Assembly: GCA_027451965.1 (NCBI GenBank) | Contig: DAIDHJ010000001.1 | Location: forward strand, 87,639 to 151,638 | Direction: 5' to 3' | DNA: 64,000 nt | Origin: Candidatus Adlerbacteria bacterium | GTDB taxonomy: Bacteria > Patescibacteriota > Minisyncoccia > Phycocordibacterales > SBAW01 | Notes under the pieces: model-generated | What the model saw: only the letters and a program-made list of their open reading frames with translations | Databases searched by the model: none | What the model was told of the DNA's origin: nothing | Made by a program: the position numbers and the translations under genes | Shown: in pieces, positions 2,981 through 8,685 of the stretch | How the letters are laid out: the number at the start of each line of letters is the position of its first letter | Position numbering within the stretch: the stretch's first letter is position 1

Positions 2981-3778
2981 TTAGCGGATCTCGTACGTGA
3001 TGCTGACATCATCAGTAACGGTAGTTTGTCCTGGGGAAATAACTGGTGCAGAAGCGCTTGCCGCCATGGTGCGGACGCCTTCCATAATAGGAAGCGGGTT
3101 GCCTCCATTGAGATTTTCATTGAATGAGACTACGCGTACCAAAGACACACCGAGCTGCTGAGCTAGCGATGTCGCTTTCTGTTTTGCATTGGCAATTGCA
3201 TTGCTGCGTGCCATATCCTGGACTTCATTCGGATCATTGAACGTCATAGTAAGACTGCTGACTTCGGAAGCTCCTTGTTGTCCTACTCCCGAAAGCAAAT
3301 CCCCTGCCTTGGAGATATCACGAACTTTTACTGTGGTAGTTTGTCGTACTTCATATCCCGTGAGCACTTGCTTGCTCGGAGGACAGGGGATGTTTGCTAG
3401 AGCCGGGCAAACACCTCCTTGTTCATACGAGTATTGGGGTTGTATTGAATAATCGCTTGTTTGAATGTCGTTGGCACTCACTCCCGCTTGCACTAAGTAG
3501 TTGGTCACTGCATTTATTTTTGTTGCAGCATCTTGCTGCGCCGCTGCGACCGTAGGTTTGTCGGATACAACAGAAAACGTAAAGGTTGCGATATCCGGAG
3601 CTTTGAATGCTTCGCCGTGTCCGGAAACAACGATCGTATTGGTTGGCGTAATACCGGTTCCTATGTAGCGCAATCCCATTGTTGCGGCAATTGCCTGCAC
3701 TGCAAGAAACACACCAAGTAATATCAATACTACAAATAGAGCAATACGGATTTTTTTTCCTTCAAATAGTTGTTCCAT
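2981..3778 (-). CDS. SIMPL/DUF541 domain periplasmic protein (26-kDa periplasmic immunogenic protein family), N-terminal TM anchor
   Basis: N-terminal TM IALFVVLILLGVFLAVQAIA. Body ...VVSGHGEAFKAPDIATFTFSVVS...AKQKATSLAQQLGVSLVRVVSFNE is typical of DUF541. Confidence 0.65.
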   Translation of the reverse strand: MEQLFEGKKIRIALFVVLILLGVFLAVQAIAATMGLRYIGTGITPTNTIVVSGHGEAFKAPDIATFTFSVVSDKPTVAAAQQDAATKINAVTNYLVQAGVSANDIQTSDYSIQPQYSYEQGGVCPALANIPCPPSKQVLTGYEVRQTTTVKVRDISKAGDLLSGVGQQGASEVSSLTMTFNDPNEVQDMARSNAIANAKQKATSLAQQLGVSLVRVVSFNENLNGGNPLPIMEGVRTMAASASAPVISPGQTTVTDDVSITYEIR

Positions 3779-3892
3779 AAGACATCTTTAGATGCTAATA
3801 TCACTATTTTACTCTATTTTCTCTCCCCTTTGCATATCTTATACATACAAAAATCTCTTATAAGTGATTTTATATAGAACTTCTTTGTTAAG

Positions 3893-4258
3893 ATGGAGAT
3901 GAATCGCATGATCAAGATTAAGCGCGCATATGAGAAAGCTTCAAGTAAGGATGGCTATCGTATTTTGGTAGATCGTTTATGGCCTCGCGGCGTTTCGAAG
4001 AAACTACTCCATTTATATCGCTGGGAGAAAGACCTTGCTCCATCGACCATGCTGCGAAAATGGTTTAATCATGATCCAAAGAAATGGGCAGGATTCAAAC
4101 GAAAATATCTCACCGAGTTACGAAAAAAGGCGCCGTTGATAAAAGAACTGCGAGCTTTGAGCAGAGGGCATACAGTCACTTTGGTGTACGGAGCAAAAGA
4201 TGATGAACACAATGAAGCTGTAATATTGGCTCAAGTAGCAGGAACTAATAAAAAATAA
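3893..4258 (+). CDS. DUF488 family protein (YeaO-like)
   Basis: IKIKRAYEKASSKDGYRILVDRLWPRGVSKK matches the DUF488 signature (RxYE..DG.RxLVDRLWPRG). The start may be the internal MIKIK at 3908. Confidence 0.6.
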   Translation: MEMNRMIKIKRAYEKASSKDGYRILVDRLWPRGVSKKLLHLYRWEKDLAPSTMLRKWFNHDPKKWAGFKRKYLTELRKKAPLIKELRALSRGHTVTLVYGAKDDEHNEAVILAQVAGTNKK

Positions 4259-4325
4259 TCTGGACCGAAAGGGCGAAACTAATCGAACCATCGATTGTCT
4301 CGGGGCTCTATCGGATTCGGATATC

Positions 4326-5753
4326 CTATGCTGAATCAATCTGTTTTTTTACAAACTCACGATTTAGCCAGAAACAACGTTTTGTCGCTTCGGCTCCATT
4401 AGGCAGAGGCAGGGTGTCGGATGCATCTCGTCCATGTGGTCGCACGTGTACGACATCGCTTCCCGATTTCTTAGGTAAAGAGTCGACATCGCTTTTCTTA
4501 ATCGCTATCACGGCTTCATGCCATACGCGTTGTACTTCTCCCTCTAAAATGTCATGGGGTATTGTCCAGAAAAAGACCTTGTATAAACGTCTGGAGTCTC
4601 CAACCTTGCAGTCATCATCACATTTATAAACAACGAAAAGAAATTGCTTCTGCAACTGATTCTTGAATGTACTTTCGAGTTTTTCGTCGTCTGCTCCCGC
4701 GCCCCAATCTTCTTGGATGAGTTCGAGGAATTTGAACGCTGGGAACGACATATCTTCCTTCGGCATGCCATCTCCGCGTAATTGGACCGTTTTCATTGCT
4801 ATCTCGGCCTTTTCAAACTCTTCGATTTTTTTGCCCTTTACCCCTATCATGCGACGCGCGAGCATCGCATAGAAATCCTTAGATTCAGGATTTAGACCAT
4901 CTCCAATCTTTTGCTGAATCTCTTTTACTGATTTTCCGAGAAACGGAGAGAAACGGTCGAGAATCTCCTGTTCGAAGGTCTTTCGACGTAAGGCCGATGA
5001 ATCCTTTACAGCCGCTTCGTACTCCCCAGCCGCGATTGTTGGTTCCAACATTTGTCGGAGCAAGACCGTCATATATCCGGCTTTGAAAGAGAAAGCGCGC
5101 GGCTTGGCTGCTGGCCCGCCGCTAGCTTGCGTCCGGGTCACAGAAGAATCAGCGGCTTTGGTGCATGCCGCTAGATACTGTGTGTCCCCCTCGGAGAGTT
5201 CGTGAGCTTTGCCTGCACGAATCTTCTCGACGATAGTCCGCCAATCGTTTTCAATTATGTTTCGGTCCCGCTCGGGCAACTCTTTGAAATCGAGCAATTG
5301 CGCAACAAGGACCGGATGGTCGACCATGGCTCTCTCATCTTTATGCTCATAAGAAACTAGCATGATTCTAGCGTTCTTCCGCAAGAACGAGCTGGCATCG
5401 AAATCGGCTGCTTCAGCTTCTTTTGAATAGTTGATGATGTTTAAGACTAATCGTTCCTTTGCCGAATAATCTCCGTTCCTGAGATGTTTTAGAGGAGTCG
5501 ATTTGAGTTCGACTCGGGCTTCCGGAAAATCCGGAAGAGACTCGTTCGGAGGAGTGATTCCGTAGTAGTACCTTTCCAAAATAGTCCCGAAGGAGCCGCG
5601 AGACCGACCACCTATGCGCATCTCTAGCAGCGCGTCAGGAATAGGCAGGATGCCCGGCGTCGTTCGCAAGGTCTTATGGAGCAGCCTCTTGCCATAACGC
5701 TCTATATCTGTCGGACTAGATTGATCGTATTGAGCCTGCATGGTAGGATCCAT
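4326..5753 (-). CDS. type II restriction endonuclease, Sau3AI/MutH family (predicted GATC-specific)
   Basis: GSFGTILERYYYGITPPNESLPDFPEARVELKSTPLK matches the MutH/Sau3AI catalytic block (GxxGxxLE...PDF...ELK). The ~475-aa size fits the two-domain Sau3AI family. It is divergent from an adjacent C5-MTase plus vsr. Start chosen at MDPTMQ (5753); the ORF is open to 5894. Confidence 0.55.
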   Translation of the reverse strand: MDPTMQAQYDQSSPTDIERYGKRLLHKTLRTTPGILPIPDALLEMRIGGRSRGSFGTILERYYYGITPPNESLPDFPEARVELKSTPLKHLRNGDYSAKERLVLNIINYSKEAEAADFDASSFLRKNARIMLVSYEHKDERAMVDHPVLVAQLLDFKELPERDRNIIENDWRTIVEKIRAGKAHELSEGDTQYLAACTKAADSSVTRTQASGGPAAKPRAFSFKAGYMTVLLRQMLEPTIAAGEYEAAVKDSSALRRKTFEQEILDRFSPFLGKSVKEIQQKIGDGLNPESKDFYAMLARRMIGVKGKKIEEFEKAEIAMKTVQLRGDGMPKEDMSFPAFKFLELIQEDWGAGADDEKLESTFKNQLQKQFLFVVYKCDDDCKVGDSRRLYKVFFWTIPHDILEGEVQRVWHEAVIAIKKSDVDSLPKKSGSDVVHVRPHGRDASDTLPLPNGAEATKRCFWLNREFVKKQIDSA

Positions 5754-5768
5754 ATAATCAAAGAGTAC

Positions 5769-7043
5769 ATGAAAAAAGCAATGGGTGATAGCAAAAAAAA
5801 GATAAGAGTAATCGAACTTTTTGCAGGCGTCGGCGGATTCAGAGTCGGCCTCGAAAGGGCATCGAAGCGCTTCGAGACTGTCTGGTTTAACCAATGGGAA
5901 CCTGGAAAATCAGCAGCTTCGCAGCATGCATGGAAAATTTATTGCACGGCCTTCGGTGAGGATATTGAAAGTGCTCGAAATAAACATACAAATACAGATA
6001 TCCATCAGGTTGAGATTGATGCAATTCCCAATCACGATCTCCTCGTCGGAGGATTCCCATGTCAGGACTACTCGGTAGCACGCGTGCTGAGCCAAGCGGC
6101 CGGGCTCATCGGCAAAAAAGGGGTCTTGTGGTGGGACATCTATCGCATCCTAAAAGATAAGAAAGCTCGTGCACCTTCGTATCTCATTCTTGAGAACGTC
6201 GACAGGCTTCTTAAATCTCCCGTGTCACAGCGAGGACGCGACTTCGCAGTCATGCTCGGATCACTGGCGGAACGTGGTTATGCAGTCGAATGGCGGGTAA
6301 TTAATGCTGCAGATTATGGAATGCCGCAAAGGCGCAGGCGCGTTTATATTCTTGGATACAAAAAAGGCACGCCGCAGTTCGAATCCGTCAAACGAAACCC
6401 GGAACGATGGCTTATGCGCGACGGTGTAATGCCCAAAGCCTTTCCTGTTGAAGCCATAGCTGAAGAAAAGATTCGTTCAATCATCATCGGACCCGCTGAA
6501 GAAGCATCTAAAAAGTTCAATAAAGGCGGTAGGCAAACGCCATTTGAAAATGCTGGAGTTATGGTGGGTGGCAAAGCTTTCACAGTCAAGACAATCCCCA
6601 ATACAGAGAAGACTATGACTCTGGGAGATGTCCTCGCCAACGATTCAGAAGTGTCCACTGAGTTTTACATTCCGAAGCGTCAGCTTGCCCTGTGGAAACA
6701 ATTGAAGGACGGAAAACGAGAGATGAGACGAAGTAAGTCCGGCTTCGAATACGAATACGCCGAAGGACCTGTGGCATTCCCGGACGCACTTAATAAACCA
6801 TCTCGAACGATTGTTACCGGCGAGGGAGGTTCTACACCTTCACGATTCAAACACGTGGTCCAGACGCGTGATGGAAGACTCCGTCGGCTGATACCCAAAG
6901 AACTTGAGCGGCTGAATATGTTCCCCGAGAACCATACCGCGGGAGCATCGGATACGGCGAGAGCATTCTTTATGGGGAACGCTTTGGTAGTAGGTATAGT
7001 CACGCGACTCGGAAAGGAGTTGCTGAAAAGGATAGATGGCTGA
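5769..7043 (+). CDS. DNA (cytosine-5)-methyltransferase
   Basis: Motif I IRVIELFAGVGGF; motif IV GGFPCQDYS; motif VI ILENV; ~425 aa. Start at MKKAMG (5769) rather than the ORF-track 5676, which would overlap the R gene. Confidence 0.85.
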   Translation: MKKAMGDSKKKIRVIELFAGVGGFRVGLERASKRFETVWFNQWEPGKSAASQHAWKIYCTAFGEDIESARNKHTNTDIHQVEIDAIPNHDLLVGGFPCQDYSVARVLSQAAGLIGKKGVLWWDIYRILKDKKARAPSYLILENVDRLLKSPVSQRGRDFAVMLGSLAERGYAVEWRVINAADYGMPQRRRRVYILGYKKGTPQFESVKRNPERWLMRDGVMPKAFPVEAIAEEKIRSIIIGPAEEASKKFNKGGRQTPFENAGVMVGGKAFTVKTIPNTEKTMTLGDVLANDSEVSTEFYIPKRQLALWKQLKDGKREMRRSKSGFEYEYAEGPVAFPDALNKPSRTIVTGEGGSTPSRFKHVVQTRDGRLRRLIPKELERLNMFPENHTAGASDTARAFFMGNALVVGIVTRLGKELLKRIDG

Positions 7044-7449
7044 CATATTCACAAAAGAAAAACGGAGCGAGATAATGTCGCGAATCCGTCCGAAAGGAAC
7101 CAAACTGGAACTGCTTGTTTTTAGCCACCTTCGCAAAGAGAAAATACATTTTCAGAAGCACTACCGAAGCGCAGTGGGCAGTCCAGATATAGCTGTACCG
7201 AGCAAGAAGCTTGCCGTTTTTATCGATGGCGACTTCTGGCATGGATGGCGGTTCTCACAATGGGAGCAGAAGCTTCCGCAGGAGTACTGGCGTGGCAAGA
7301 TTAGGGCGAATATCGACAGAGACCGGAGGACATTTGCAAAGCTTCGTCGACACGGCTGGAAGGTTTTGCGTGTGTGGGAACATGACCTGTCTAAATCCAA
7401 GCGAACCCTTACGCTCACTAAAATCGCGAAGTTTCTAACTACTTCTTGA
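7036..7449 (+). CDS. vsr: very-short-patch-repair endonuclease Vsr
   Basis: EKRSEIMSRIRPKGTKLEL...PDIAV...KLAVFIDGDFWHGW...RD is the Vsr family signature (TxPE...PDIV...AIFVDGCFWH). It overlaps the MTase stop by 8 nt. Confidence 0.8.
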   Translation: MADIFTKEKRSEIMSRIRPKGTKLELLVFSHLRKEKIHFQKHYRSAVGSPDIAVPSKKLAVFIDGDFWHGWRFSQWEQKLPQEYWRGKIRANIDRDRRTFAKLRRHGWKVLRVWEHDLSKSKRTLTLTKIAKFLTTS

Positions 7450-7654
7450 CTACCAGAGAACTTGTTTCCACCCACCCCGCAACGTCATAACAGCTGCGTT
7501 GGATATGGTCTTCTTTTCGTCCTCTGTAAGTTCTTCCGAAACTTTGTTCGCCGAATTTGCCGAATCCTGGAGCGATTTCAGAATGCGAACTGCAAGCAAC
7601 ACCAGCGTCCGCGGAATTCACCGCAGGAGAACTGCTCCAATTAAACACTTTCTT

Positions 7655-7728
7655 GGGCGATCGCCGGGAATCGAACCCGGATCGGGAGGACCACAATCTC
7701 CAGTGTTGACCATTACACCACGATCGCC
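7655..7728 (-). tRNA. tRNA-His (anticodon GTG) with genomically encoded G-1; CCA not encoded
   Basis: The reverse complement GGCGATCGTGGTGTAATGGTCAACACTGGAGATTGTGGTCCTCCCGATCCGGGTTCGATTCCCGGCGATCGCCC folds as a cloverleaf: acceptor GCGATCG/CGATCGC, T-arm CCGGG-TTCGATT-CCCGG, anticodon loop TTGTGGT, extra 5' G. Confidence 0.8.
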
Positions 7729-7777
7729 ATATAAACGCCCTTATATATACCATTTCTTTCCACTTGAGAAAAGAAAT

Positions 7778-8134
7778 TTAGGATATAGATACTTTTTCTA
7801 ATAATTCCTTATCTGCTTGTGAATCTTCGAAAAAATTCATCTGCAGACTGGGAATGTAAATGTGTAAACTACCTGATTTCTGTTGCATGGAATTATTCCC
7901 TGCTATATGCGGCACAGTAGGACGCTCAAAAAATAAGCGAGGAGCTCGTGCAGTGAGCACCTTGCCATTTTTTATTTCAAAAAACATTCCATGTATAGCA
8001 AAGACCCATCCGAATGATTTTCCATGATCGTGTTTGCGGGTACGCGCTTCCGATTCCCACACAATCCACACCACATCCATCCAACGAAACAAGCGGAACA
8101 GAATAGTTCGCTTGTATGCATTGATTTGCCACAT
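7778..8134 (-). CDS. hypothetical protein (118 aa) between tRNA-His and tRNA-Leu
   Basis: ORF only; no recognisable motif and no clear SD sequence. It could be non-coding. Confidence 0.25.
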   Translation of the reverse strand: MWQINAYKRTILFRLFRWMDVVWIVWESEARTRKHDHGKSFGWVFAIHGMFFEIKNGKVLTARAPRLFFERPTVPHIAGNNSMQQKSGSLHIYIPSLQMNFFEDSQADKELLEKVSIS

Positions 8135-8158
8135 ATGTACTAACTATACCCAATTCTG

Positions 8159-8240
8159 TGCCCAGGAGAGGACTCGAACCTCCAAGCCTTGCGGCATATG
8201 CACCTCAAGCATACGCGTATACCAATTCCGCCACCTGGGC
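8159..8240 (-). tRNA. tRNA-Leu (anticodon GAG), class II with long variable arm
   Basis: Reverse complement GCCCAGGTGGCGGAATTGGTATACGCGTATGCTTGAGGTGCATATGCCGCAAGGCTTGGAGGTTCGAGTCCTCTCCTGGGCA. Anticodon stem TATGC/GCATA, loop TTGAGGT, 13-nt variable arm. Confidence 0.8.
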
Positions 8241-8250
8241 ATGAAACCTA

Positions 8251-8685
8251 TTATGCAGCAACTTCAGTTTCTTGTTGAGCGGCTGCATCTGGTACCTCTG
8301 TCACCGCCTGCTCATCTGTGTTCGCTGCTATGGTTTGTGATTTACGCATGGCACGCTTTACATCACGTGCAGCCTTGCGTCGAATGAAATACAGTTTTGC
8401 GCGGCGAGTATAGGCGCGGCGCAACAGTTCAATAGAATCTATAGAAGGAGAATAGAGTGGAAAAATTTTCTCCACCCCAACGCCGCTTGCTACCTTTCGA
8501 ACAGTAAATGTAGCTCCCGGTTCTGTGCCATGCTTTACCGCAAGCACCAACCCTTCAAATGCTTGGCGTCGTGCCTTTCCTTTTTCAATCACTTTTTGCC
8601 ACACACGAACCGTGTCCCCCGCTCGGATGCCAAGCTGGGCTCGTTCTTTCGTATTTATTGGTGTATGGACGACGGACGATTTCAC
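8251..8685 (-). CDS. rplS: 50S ribosomal protein L19
   Basis: GDTVRVWQKVIEKGKARRQAFEGLVLAVKHGTEPGATFTVRKVASGVGVEKIFPLYSPSIDSIELLRRAYTRRAKLYFIRR is the canonical L19 core. Confidence 0.85.
   Translation of the reverse strand: MKSSVVHTPINTKERAQLGIRAGDTVRVWQKVIEKGKARRQAFEGLVLAVKHGTEPGATFTVRKVASGVGVEKIFPLYSPSIDSIELLRRAYTRRAKLYFIRRKAARDVKRAMRKSQTIAANTDEQAVTEVPDAAAQQETEVAA

What the first reader, a model, noticed from the sequence alone, without database searches (positions are those of the whole stretch)
4259..7740. Sau3AI/MutH-family restriction enzyme + C5-cytosine methyltransferase + Vsr cassette immediately 3' of tRNA-His, with a possible decayed tRNA-derived direct repeat at the far border
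R (MutH/Sau3AI motif GSFGTILE...PDFPEARVELK), M (FAGVGG, PCQ, ENV) and vsr are contiguous. The class matches Sau3AI-type systems that recognise GATC and protect by m5C, and Vsr fits the T:G repair need created by 5mC deamination. The cassette sits directly downstream of the 3' end of tRNA-His (7655), the classical integration site for islands. At the opposite border (4271-4293) the sequence gggcga-aact-aatcgaacc resembles the tRNA-His 3' segment gggcga-tcgccggg-aatcgaacc (7655-7677). That could be a degenerate att repeat of a ~3.4-kb islet that has lost its integrase.
Basis: partly seen in the sequence, partly recalled or inferred. Interest (0 to 1): 0.55.

Follow-up and report, generated by a model that had tools for sequence, protein, structure and literature searches.

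The report
Strain-variable GATC restriction-modification-Vsr cassette beside tRNA-His
A small candidate-phylum (Parcubacteria) genome carries an intact-looking Sau3AI-type restriction enzyme, its cytosine-methylase partner and a Vsr repair nuclease. They form a 3.4-kb add-on between a conserved DUF488 gene and tRNA-His, which is an ordinary kind of mobile defence cassette and is missing from sister strains.

Summary
The gene calls are right. R (4326-5741, -) is a full-length Sau3AI-family endonuclease. M (5769-7043, +) is a C5-cytosine methyltransferase. Vsr (7036-7449, +) overlaps the end of M by 8 nt. tRNA-His (7655-7727, -) has its 3' end 205 nt beyond Vsr.

The cassette is an accessory insert.
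- Three ~99%-identical contigs from other samples join window 3817 to 7654 through 40 unrelated bp. They lack DUF488, R, M and Vsr.
- In other Parcubacteria, DUF488 sits in the same L11-NusG-SecE-SIMPL neighbourhood and is followed by tRNA-His, with other cargo or none between.
- The closest cassette relatives (67-77% aa) lie in elements with large serine recombinases.
- The cassette has GATC at 0.25 of expectation, while the rest of the window has 0.96.

The proposed decayed tRNA-derived repeat at 4271-4293 is only suggestive (p about 0.001-0.07, depending on the scoring scheme). However, it lies where the closest DUF488 relative appears to have the tRNA-His 3' end. No integrase or integrase remnant was found.

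This is a new member of a known kind and of modest interest. One side observation is worth noting: a single GATC at codon 6 of R, next to the predicted M promoter, is kept in all close relatives although GATC is otherwise purged.

The parts
3818..7653 (.). Strain-variable segment (3836 bp). Near-identical strains replace it with 40 bp (CTTGTCCGTAACTCCCTAATTAAATTTTTACTGAAAAATC).
   Evidence: L004, L013 and L018 align at ~99% up to window 3817 and resume at 7654. Both filled junctions are confirmed independently: the left by L001/L017 and L019, the right by L011.
3908..4258 (+). DUF488 (YeaO-like) gene. It is the ancestral syntenic neighbour, not part of the R-M module. An alternative start lies at 3893.
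   Evidence: Pfam PF22752/PF04343. Homologues at 75-77% aa lie in the same L11-NusG-SecE-SIMPL neighbourhood, followed by tRNA-His, in L136-L139. It has 3 GATC in 366 bp, unlike the cassette.
4259..4296 (.). Candidate decayed copy of 'trailer + tRNA-His 3' end' (TCTGG...GGGCGA..AATCGAACC..ATCG). It also contains the palindrome AATCGA-ACCA-TCGATT (4281-4296), between the convergent DUF488 and R genes.
   Evidence: Sequence. Significance tests give p = 0.001-0.07. In L141 (89% nt DUF488), the sequence TGGGCGA begins 3 nt after the DUF488 stop.
4326..5741 (-). R: Sau3AI-family type II restriction endonuclease. It has an N-terminal MutH-like catalytic domain and a C-terminal Sau3AI effector domain.
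   Evidence: NF040973 equivalog scores 413 bits against a cutoff of 300. PF02976 E = 4e-27. PDB matches: 4pxg E = 1.7e-65, and the C-terminal-domain entries 7xm0 and 2reu at E = 6e-19 and 4e-18. Identical to P0001.
5723..5758 (+). Divergent control region. It holds the conserved GATC (5723-5726, codons 6-7 of R), a sigma70-like promoter for M (TTGAGC 5730-5735, 17 nt, TATAAT 5753-5758), and a second GATC at 5747 inside the promoter spacer.
   Evidence: Promoter scan. GATC conservation and codon analysis.
5769..7043 (+). M: C5-cytosine DNA methyltransferase, the partner of R.
   Evidence: PF00145 E = 7e-62, TIGR00675 233 bits. It is 45-72% identical to the methylases next to Sau3AI-family R genes in most of the surveyed loci. 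It is 43.6% identical over 97% of its length to the M. hyorhinis dcm that lies beside a Sau3AI-family endonuclease.
7036..7449 (+). Vsr very-short-patch-repair endonuclease. It overlaps M by 8 nt, which suggests translational coupling.
   Evidence: TIGR00632 scores 109.7 against a cutoff of 97.85; PF03852 E = 8e-21. E. coli Vsr structure 1cw0 matches at E = 1.7e-15.
7450..7653 (.). 204-nt non-coding spacer, specific to the filled allele, between Vsr and the tRNA-His 3' end.
   Evidence: No Rfam hit. No nucleotide or translated similarity to any fetched locus or to the rest of the window. Absent from the empty-site contigs.
7655..7727 (-). tRNA-His (GTG). Its 3' end forms the fixed border of the variable slot.
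   Evidence: ARAGORN. Rfam RF00005, 55.8 bits. Identical in filled and empty strains.

Best explanation
This is a three-gene Type II restriction-modification module of the Sau3AI kind. It sits in a 548-kb Parcubacteria (CPR) genome.

How the module works (inferred from family knowledge):
- R cuts unmethylated GATC. It uses a MutH-like PD-(D/E)XK domain (D...E-L-K motif present) and has a second, Sau3AI-type effector domain that in Sau3AI binds another GATC.
- M methylates C5 of the cytosine in GATC on the host's GATC sites (3.9 per kb in this window).
- Vsr, translationally coupled to M, nicks 5' of the T in T:G mismatches left by 5mC deamination, so that GAT5mC sites do not decay to GATT.
- R and M are divergently transcribed from a 27-bp gap.

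How it came to be here:
- The module (about 4259/4297-7653) is an accessory insertion into a variable slot between the conserved DUF488 gene and the 3' end of tRNA-His.
- It was most likely acquired horizontally from the pool of related cassettes that travel in serine-recombinase elements among Parcubacteria. It now has no recombinase of its own.
- Sister strains lack both the module and DUF488.

Shown here: gene identities, intact motifs, the insertion/absence polymorphism, cross-genus synteny, and GATC depletion of the cassette.
Inferred: GATC/m5C specificity, activity, Vsr target context, and the route of arrival.
For: Family identity:
- R scores 413 bits against the NF040973 equivalog (cutoff 300). 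The MutH models score far below their cutoffs, 62 against 243.
- R aligns with the Sau3AI structure 4pxg over residues 50-448, and separately with the C-terminal-domain structures.
- M and Vsr pass their curated cutoffs.

Specificity:
- M homologues (45-72% identity) flank Sau3AI-family R genes in nearly all of 74 metagenome loci.
- One such homologue lies beside the M. hyorhinis Sau3AI-family gene.
- Mhy3 and M. hominis DCM2 are experimentally GAT5mC-specific (PMC4636357, PMC10305163).

Accessory status:
- Empty-site contigs L004, L013 and L018 are ~99% identical in the flanks.
- DUF488 is followed by tRNA-His without any R-M in L139 (420 bp apart), in L136-138 (MscL and a beta-lactamase-like gene between), and probably in L141 (3 nt apart).
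- The nearest cassettes, L060 (77%) and L061 (67%), have the same R<->M->Vsr layout inside elements with large serine recombinases. DNA homology is confined to 4366-7389.
- The cassette has 4 GATC in 3124 bp (O/E 0.25). That is fewer than any of 539 other windows of the same size (minimum 5). The host O/E is 0.96.
Against: - No enzymatic or methylome evidence exists, so activity and specificity rest on homology.
- GC content of the cassette (0.45-0.51) does not differ from the host.
- No integrase, recombinase fragment or clean direct repeats bound the insert.
- The strain-level indel removes DUF488 as well. The observed polymorphism is therefore not a simple excision or insertion of the 3.4-kb module and needs either two events or an allelic swap.
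- The Vsr lacks three residues aligned to the zinc ligands of E. coli Vsr. The residue roles come from my knowledge of the 1VSR/1CW0 literature.
Confidence: 0.8

Rival explanations
1. The module arrived by site-specific integration into the 3' end of tRNA-His. That left a decayed copy of the displaced tRNA 3' end at 4259-4296 (attL) and a restored tRNA at 7655-7727 (attR). The recombinase has since been lost, or it acted in trans.
For: - Collinear blocks TCTGG / GCGA / AATCGAACC / ATCG are shared with the 'trailer + tRNA-His 3' end'. Tests give p = 0.001-0.02 with the empty-site junction as query and p = 0.003-0.07 with the tRNA end alone.
- The remnant lies 2-12 nt after the DUF488 stop. That is where L141 (89% nt identical DUF488) shows TGGGCGA 3 nt after its stop.
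- Related cassettes ride with serine recombinases, one of them abutting tRNA-Gln.
Against: - About 1% of unrelated windows reach the same score.
- Similarity vanishes beyond ~31 nt.
- The 9-mer is half of a local palindrome that could simply be a terminator hairpin between convergent genes.
- Related cassette loci contain no tRNA-His-like att sequence.
- L061 has no tRNA-Gln repeat.
- No recombinase remnant exists in the island or in the 64-kb window.
Confidence: 0.45
2. The whole SIMPL-to-tRNA-His interval is a recombination-exchanged allele. The filled (DUF488 + R-M-Vsr) and empty (40 bp) versions segregate in the species and are swapped by homologous recombination in the conserved flanks. 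No integration event happened at this site in this lineage, and the tRNA resemblance at 4271-4293 is chance.
For: - The two alleles differ by a replacement (3836 bp against 40 bp) with no target duplication and no significant similarity between the 40-mer and the island ends.
- The flanks stay ~99% identical right up to both junctions. The nearest SNPs are at 3675 and 7745.
- Independent assemblies contain both alleles in the same study.
Against: - This does not explain how R-M-Vsr first came to lie between DUF488 and tRNA-His. It only moves the event to a donor.
- Cross-genus synteny still marks R-M-Vsr as the added part.
Confidence: 0.35
3. R-M-Vsr is ancestral at this locus, and the empty-site strains simply deleted it together with DUF488.
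For: - The empties also lack DUF488, which is ancestral by synteny, so they have certainly lost something.
- The cassette's GC content matches the host.
Against: - No related Parcubacteria locus has R-M genes between DUF488 and tRNA-His.
- The closest cassettes are in unrelated mobile contexts.
- GATC is purged from the cassette but not from the host.
- The exact R protein is recorded on a single contig.
Confidence: 0.12
4. R is a MutH-type mismatch-repair nickase working with a solitary methylase, not a restriction enzyme.
For: The Pfam MutH domain hit. Several database sources name homologues 'MutH'.
Against: - MutH equivalog models score 46-62 bits against cutoffs of 230-243, while the Sau3AI model passes.
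- The protein is twice the length of MutH and has the Sau3AI C-terminal domain.
- Its partner is a C5 methylase, not Dam.
Confidence: 0.02

Closest known systems
Sau3AI restriction-modification system of Staphylococcus aureus 3A (R.Sau3AI, PDB 4PXG/2REU/7XM0; M.Sau3AI, m5C at GATC)
   Same: R has the same two-domain architecture. It aligns over residues 50-448 with E = 1.7e-65 and passes the NCBIfam equivalog model. Its partner is likewise a C5 methyltransferase.
   Different: It comes from a CPR/Parcubacteria host. R and M are divergent with a 27-bp gap. A Vsr gene is coupled to M. I do not recall a Vsr in the S. aureus system, and this was not checked here. Cleavage and methylation were not tested.
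Mycoplasma Sau3AI-homologue systems: M. hominis MhoIII (Sau3AI homologue + DCM2) and M. hyorhinis Mhy3
   Same: M is 43.6% identical over 97% of its length to the M. hyorhinis dcm that lies next to a Sau3AI-family endonuclease. GAT5mC methylation was shown experimentally for Mhy3 and DCM2 (PMC4636357, PMC10305163).
   Different: In the mycoplasma locus, M and R are co-directional and the annotated region shows no Vsr. I did not verify that WP_014335567.1 is Mhy3 itself.
Vsr-associated m5C methyltransferase systems (E. coli Dcm-Vsr; Vsr homologues beside type II m5C R-M systems)
   Same: Vsr lies immediately downstream of the C5 methylase gene and overlaps it, as dcm-vsr does in E. coli (the E. 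coli comparison is from my knowledge). The family model passes its cutoff, and the structure 1CW0 matches at E = 1.7e-15.
   Different: The expected mismatch context would be GAT(T:G) rather than CT(A/T)GG. The residues aligned to three of the E. coli zinc ligands are D/W/F here. Only about 12 of ~60 Sau3AI-family loci surveyed carry a Vsr.
tRNA-adjacent genomic islets / integrative elements with large serine recombinases in CPR bacteria (L060, L061)
   Same: The three-gene R<->M->Vsr module is the same at 67-77% aa identity. GATC is depleted in those cassettes and in their carrier elements. L061 abuts the 3' end of a tRNA.
   Different: The window copy has no recombinase, AAA_25 or HTH_36 genes. 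It shares no DNA with those elements outside the three coding regions.

Membership tests
Sau3AI family type II restriction endonuclease (NCBIfam NF040973) | Full-length match above the curated equivalog cutoff | tested here: met
   413 bits against a cutoff of 300; residues 50-472 cover model positions 32-474 of 475.
Sau3AI family type II restriction endonuclease (NCBIfam NF040973) | N-terminal MutH-like PD-(D/E)XK catalytic domain with the D...E-x-K motif | tested here: met
   PF02976 E = 4e-27 over residues 64-170. PDFPEARVELK aligns with PDMAEAGVALK of the 4pxg chain.
Sau3AI family type II restriction endonuclease (NCBIfam NF040973) | C-terminal Sau3AI allosteric effector domain | tested here: met
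   Residues 250-448 align with the C-terminal-domain structures 7xm0 (E = 6e-19) and 2reu (E = 4e-18).
Sau3AI family type II restriction endonuclease (NCBIfam NF040973) | Cleaves GATC and is blocked by 5mC in GATC | not testable with these tools
   Needs enzyme assays or methylome data.
C5-cytosine DNA methyltransferase, GATC-specific (M.Sau3AI/Mhy3-like) | Conserved C5-MTase motifs (I FxGxG, IV PCQ, VI ENV, VIII QRR, X GNA) | tested here: met
   FAGVGG, FPCQ, ENV, QRRRR and GNA are present in the translation. PF00145 E = 7e-62, TIGR00675 233 bits.
C5-cytosine DNA methyltransferase, GATC-specific (M.Sau3AI/Mhy3-like) | Target-recognition region orthologous to experimentally GATC-specific enzymes | tested here: inconclusive
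   Full-length identity is 43.6% to the M. hyorhinis dcm beside a Sau3AI-family gene, and 45-72% to partners of Sau3AI-family R genes. No direct comparison with M.Sau3AI or a verified Mhy3 sequence was possible.
Vsr very short patch repair endonuclease (TIGR00632 / PF03852) | Family model above cutoff, with the catalytic Asp and the F-W-H segment conserved | tested here: met
   109.7 bits against a cutoff of 97.85. The alignment to 1cw0 keeps spD/rpD, FWH and the E(F/Y)W...N..RDRR segment.
Vsr very short patch repair endonuclease (TIGR00632 / PF03852) | Structural zinc site of E. coli Vsr (Cys66, His71, Cys73, Cys117; residue roles from my knowledge of the structure papers) | tested here: not met
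   The aligned positions read D, W and F in 'GDFWHGWRF' against 'GCFWHHHHC'. The fourth ligand was not aligned.
tRNA-integrated genomic island | Lies immediately 3' of a tRNA gene and is absent from the same site in close relatives | tested here: met
   The border lies 1 nt from the tRNA-His 3' end. Three ~99%-identical contigs lack 3818-7653. Related genera have DUF488-tRNA-His without R-M.
tRNA-integrated genomic island | Encodes an integrase or recombinase | tested here: not met
   Only DUF488, R, M and Vsr are present. tblastn with the L060 and L061 serine recombinases finds nothing in the 64-kb window. The spacer has no translated similarity to any fetched locus.
tRNA-integrated genomic island | Flanking direct repeat derived from the tRNA 3' end | tested here: inconclusive
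   A gapped resemblance at 4259-4296 gives p = 0.001-0.07 depending on query and scoring. The ungapped repeat finder did not report it.
tRNA-integrated genomic island | Compositional signature different from the host | tested here: inconclusive
   GC content is not distinct. GATC O/E is 0.25 in the cassette against 0.96 in the host, lower than all 539 comparison windows.

The most novel reading that the evidence does not exclude
The single GATC retained at codons 6-7 of R lies 4 nt upstream of the -35 of the predicted M promoter. A second GATC lies in that promoter's spacer. Together they could form a methylation-sensing switch: the cassette's own m5C mark would tune the divergent R and M promoters and time R expression after entry into a new host. 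This would allow a C-protein-less, recombinase-less 3-gene module to establish itself safely in tiny CPR genomes.
Probability: 0.15. Interest if true: 0.45.

Novelty: new member of a known kind. Interest (0 to 1): 0.25.

Why it matters
This is a clean, well-delimited example of strain-level gain or loss of a defence module in an ultra-small CPR genome. The variable slot next to a tRNA is fixed across genera. The locus could help in studying how Parcubacteria exchange defence genes and how m5C-based R-M systems pay the mutational cost of 5mC through Vsr. It adds no new type of system.

Tried and rejected
- Exact-protein look-ups of R (475 aa and P0001), DUF488 (121 aa) and Vsr found nothing. 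The source contig is apparently not in that index. Flanking L11, L19 and SIMPL proteins gave the informative contigs instead.
- The ungapped repeat search over 3700-8300 found only short chance-level families and no border repeats.
- The 40-bp empty-site filler has no significant similarity to the island or its ends: p = 0.94 for the whole island, 0.05 for the tRNA-proximal 60 nt, and 0.47 for the far end.
- The segment 4240-4340 scored above all null windows against the reverse complement of tRNA-Arg(CCG), 37 against a maximum of 32. The alignment is very gappy and runs into the R coding region, so I did not rely on it.
- The spacer 7450-7653 and both junction regions show no Rfam family and no nucleotide or translated homology to the 80 related loci or to the rest of the window.
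- I searched L061 for a tRNA-Gln-derived repeat, and L060-L135 for tRNA-His-like att sequences. Neither search found any.
- Distant relatives found through SIMPL (L020-L059) have different synteny, with housekeeping genes between tRNA-His and SIMPL. They were of little use for defining the insertion.
- The DUF488 literature search gave no functional link to R-M systems.

Full report
**What is there.** The region holds four genes and a tRNA.
- DUF488 (3908-4258, +; alternative start 3893) converges on R.
- R (4326-5741, -) diverges from M (5769-7043, +) across a 27-bp gap.
- Vsr (7036-7449, +) overlaps M by 8 nt.
- After a 204-nt spacer comes tRNA-His(GTG) at 7655-7727 on the minus strand, so its 3' end faces the cassette.
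- ARAGORN and Rfam agree on the tRNA.

**Identity of the proteins.**
- R passes the NCBIfam equivalog model for Sau3AI-family type II endonucleases (413 bits, cutoff 300). The MutH equivalogs score 46-62 bits against cutoffs of about 230-243.
- R aligns with the Sau3AI crystal-structure sequence 4pxg over residues 50-448 (E = 1.7e-65). Its C-terminal half separately matches the isolated Sau3AI C-terminal-domain entries 7xm0 and 2reu. The catalytic PD...E-L-K motif is intact.
- M is a complete C5-cytosine methyltransferase (PF00145 E = 7e-62; TIGR00675 233 bits).
- Vsr passes TIGR00632 (109.7 against 97.85) and matches E. coli Vsr 1cw0 (E = 1.7e-15). The catalytic Asp and the FWH segment are conserved, but the positions aligned to three E. 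coli zinc ligands read D/W/F.

**Specificity.** This is inferred, not shown.
- In 74 metagenome loci encoding relatives of R, a homologue of this M (45-72% identity over nearly full length) lies next to R in almost all. Vsr is present in about a dozen.
- The best annotated matches include the Mesomycoplasma hyorhinis dcm gene directly upstream of a (split) Sau3AI-family endonuclease, at 43.6% identity over 97% of M.
- M. hyorhinis Mhy3 was shown experimentally to be a GATC-specific m5C methylase (PMC4636357).
- The M. hominis DCM2/Sau3AI-homologue pair gives GAT5mC protection from Sau3AI (PMC10305163).

**Host.** The flanking genes are L11, NusG, SecE, SIMPL, L19 and many tRNAs. The best SIMPL relatives are from Candidatus Adlerbacteria and Paceibacterota, so the host is a Parcubacteria (CPR) bacterium. 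The exact R protein is recorded on one NCBI contig of 548,072 bp.

**Is it an island? Strain-level evidence.** Exact-protein look-ups with flanking core proteins retrieved contigs about 99% identical to the window from other samples.
- Three of them join window 3817 to window 7654 through 40 unrelated bp: L004 from GCA_021825025.1, L013 from GCA_021834085.1, and L018 from ERZ27236847. They lack 3818-7653, which contains DUF488, R, M, Vsr and the spacer.
- Both filled junctions are confirmed by independent assemblies. L001/L017 and L019 cross 3817/3818 into DUF488, and L011 crosses 7654/7653 into Vsr. The linkage is therefore not a misassembly.
- The right border is exactly at the tRNA 3' end.
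- The 40-mer has no significant similarity to either end of the segment, and no border repeats were found.

**Is it an island? Cross-genus evidence.** Homologues of the DUF488 protein (75-77% aa) in other Parcubacteria lie in the same L11-NusG-SecE-SIMPL neighbourhood, in the same orientation, and are followed by tRNA-His on the opposite strand.
- In L139 the two are 420 bp apart, with a small YdeI/OmdA-like gene between.
- In L136-L138 they are 1.6 kb apart, with MscL and a beta-lactamase-like gene between.
- In L141, whose DUF488 is 89% identical at the DNA level, the contig ends 'TAA ATT TGGGCGA'. The first seven bases of the tRNA-His end thus begin 3 nt after the stop codon.
- DUF488 is therefore an ancestral neighbour of tRNA-His, and the interval between them is a variable slot. 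R-M-Vsr is this strain's cargo. It also means the empty strains differ by more than the module.

**Where the module comes from.** The closest R proteins are P0002 (77%) and P0006 (67%).
- Their loci carry the same R<->M->Vsr arrangement inside elements that encode large serine recombinases, together with AAA_25 or HTH_36 genes.
- In L061 the recombinase gene abuts the 3' end of tRNA-Gln.
- L060 comes from an ENA sample (ERZ27237541) that also yielded contigs of this strain (L007, L015).
- DNA similarity to the window is confined to the three coding regions, 4366-7389.
- Across the wider family there is no general tRNA linkage.
- The window has no recombinase anywhere in its 64 kb.

**Compositional signal.** GC content is unremarkable, but GATC is not.
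- The cassette has 4 GATC sites in 3124 bp (O/E 0.25). That is fewer than any of 539 equal-sized windows elsewhere (minimum 5, median 12).
- The rest of the window has O/E 0.96. DUF488 has 3 sites in 366 bp.
- L060, L061 and their carrier elements are also depleted.
- This fits a module with a history on mobile DNA exposed to GATC restriction, residing in a host that has not adapted to it.

**The proposed att remnant.** The 6 + 9-nt resemblance is real as text.
- In unbiased local alignment, about 1% of other windows and 2% of shuffles match it.
- Semi-global tests give p = 0.003-0.07 for the terminal 24-31 nt of the tRNA, and no signal for 41 nt.
- With the empty-site 'trailer + tRNA end' as query, a shared TCTGG immediately after the DUF488 stop is added, and p falls to 0.001-0.02.
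- The location coincides with where L141 places the tRNA end.
- Against this, the 9-mer is half of a palindrome (AATCGA-ACCA-TCGATT, 4281-4296) between convergent genes. No att-like sequences occur in related elements.
- I rate the remnant as about even odds.

**Mechanism.** The steps below rest on family knowledge unless a call is cited.
- M methylates C5 of the cytosine in GATC.
- R cuts unmethylated GATC on incoming DNA, probably needing two sites through its effector domain, as Sau3AI does.
- Vsr is translationally coupled to M by the ATGGCTGA overlap. It starts short-patch repair of the T:G mismatches produced when GAT5mC deaminates.
- R and M are expressed from overlapping divergent promoters. 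A sigma70-like promoter for M (TTGAGC-17-TATAAT, 5730-5758) encloses the R start codon.

**Side observation.**
- The only GATC in the R genes of the window, L061 and L062 is GAT-CAA at codons 6-7. L060 shares it, alongside three other GATC sites, and L072 has a GATC at the same offset (+15).
- All 13 other Asp codons followed by a C-initial codon in the four close R genes (window, L060, L061, L062) use GAC.
- In the window this site lies 4 nt upstream of the -35 of the predicted M promoter, and a second GATC lies in the spacer.
- Self-methylation-dependent control is possible, but it was not tested.

**Verdict.** The att-repeat and lost-integrase details remain unproven. The strain polymorphism is larger than the module. 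This is a new member of a well-known kind of system, of modest interest.

Noticed in passing
window 5723-5758 (and L060 ~6367, L061 ~8016, L062 ~1668): A GATC at codons 6-7 of R (GAT CAA) is kept in all four close cassettes and in L072. The other 13 Asp codons followed by a C-initial codon in those four R genes all use GAC. The site lies 4 nt upstream of the -35 of the predicted M promoter, and a second GATC (GGATCC, 5746-5751) lies in the promoter spacer. This could be a methylation-sensitive control of R/M expression.
   Followed up: partly
proteins P0041 (611 aa), P0061 (637 aa), P0064 (638 aa): Some Sau3AI-family endonucleases in Pacebacteria/Parcubacteria carry an extra LexA-like Peptidase_S24 domain. 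In P0041 it is C-terminal (residues 489-608, E = 1.6e-19). A restriction enzyme fused to a self-cleaving SOS-type domain is unusual.
   Followed up: partly
L139 6340-6759; L136 6340-7969; L141 1068-1077: The interval between DUF488 and the tRNA-His 3' end carries different cargo in different Parcubacteria. L139 has a YdeI/OmdA-like 101-aa gene. L136-138 have MscL and a beta-lactamase-like gene. L141 apparently has nothing. The slot is a conserved variable site across genera.
   Followed up: partly
window 7036-7449 (Vsr residues ~64-73): The Vsr homologue has D, W and F at positions aligned to Cys66, His71 and Cys73 of E. coli Vsr. The structural zinc site therefore seems absent, while the catalytic and DNA-intercalating residues are kept.
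   Followed up: no
L136 9956-11189: A reverse transcriptase (RVT_1) next to a bAvd gene lies a few kb beyond the DUF488/tRNA-His locus in Parcubacteria bacterium 21-54-25. This pairing is the signature of a diversity-generating retroelement.
   Followed up: no
window 4151, 4170 and 7226 (ends of L001/L017, L019, L011): Independent metagenome assemblies of the filled allele all break inside the island, within DUF488 and within Vsr, and none spans R-M. This suggests strain heterogeneity or low coverage of the cassette in those samples.
   Followed up: no
window 7778-8134 (-): A 118-aa ORF lies between tRNA-His and tRNA-Leu. It has no Pfam or NCBIfam match, is conserved in all sister-strain contigs, and is called as a gene there.
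   Followed up: no
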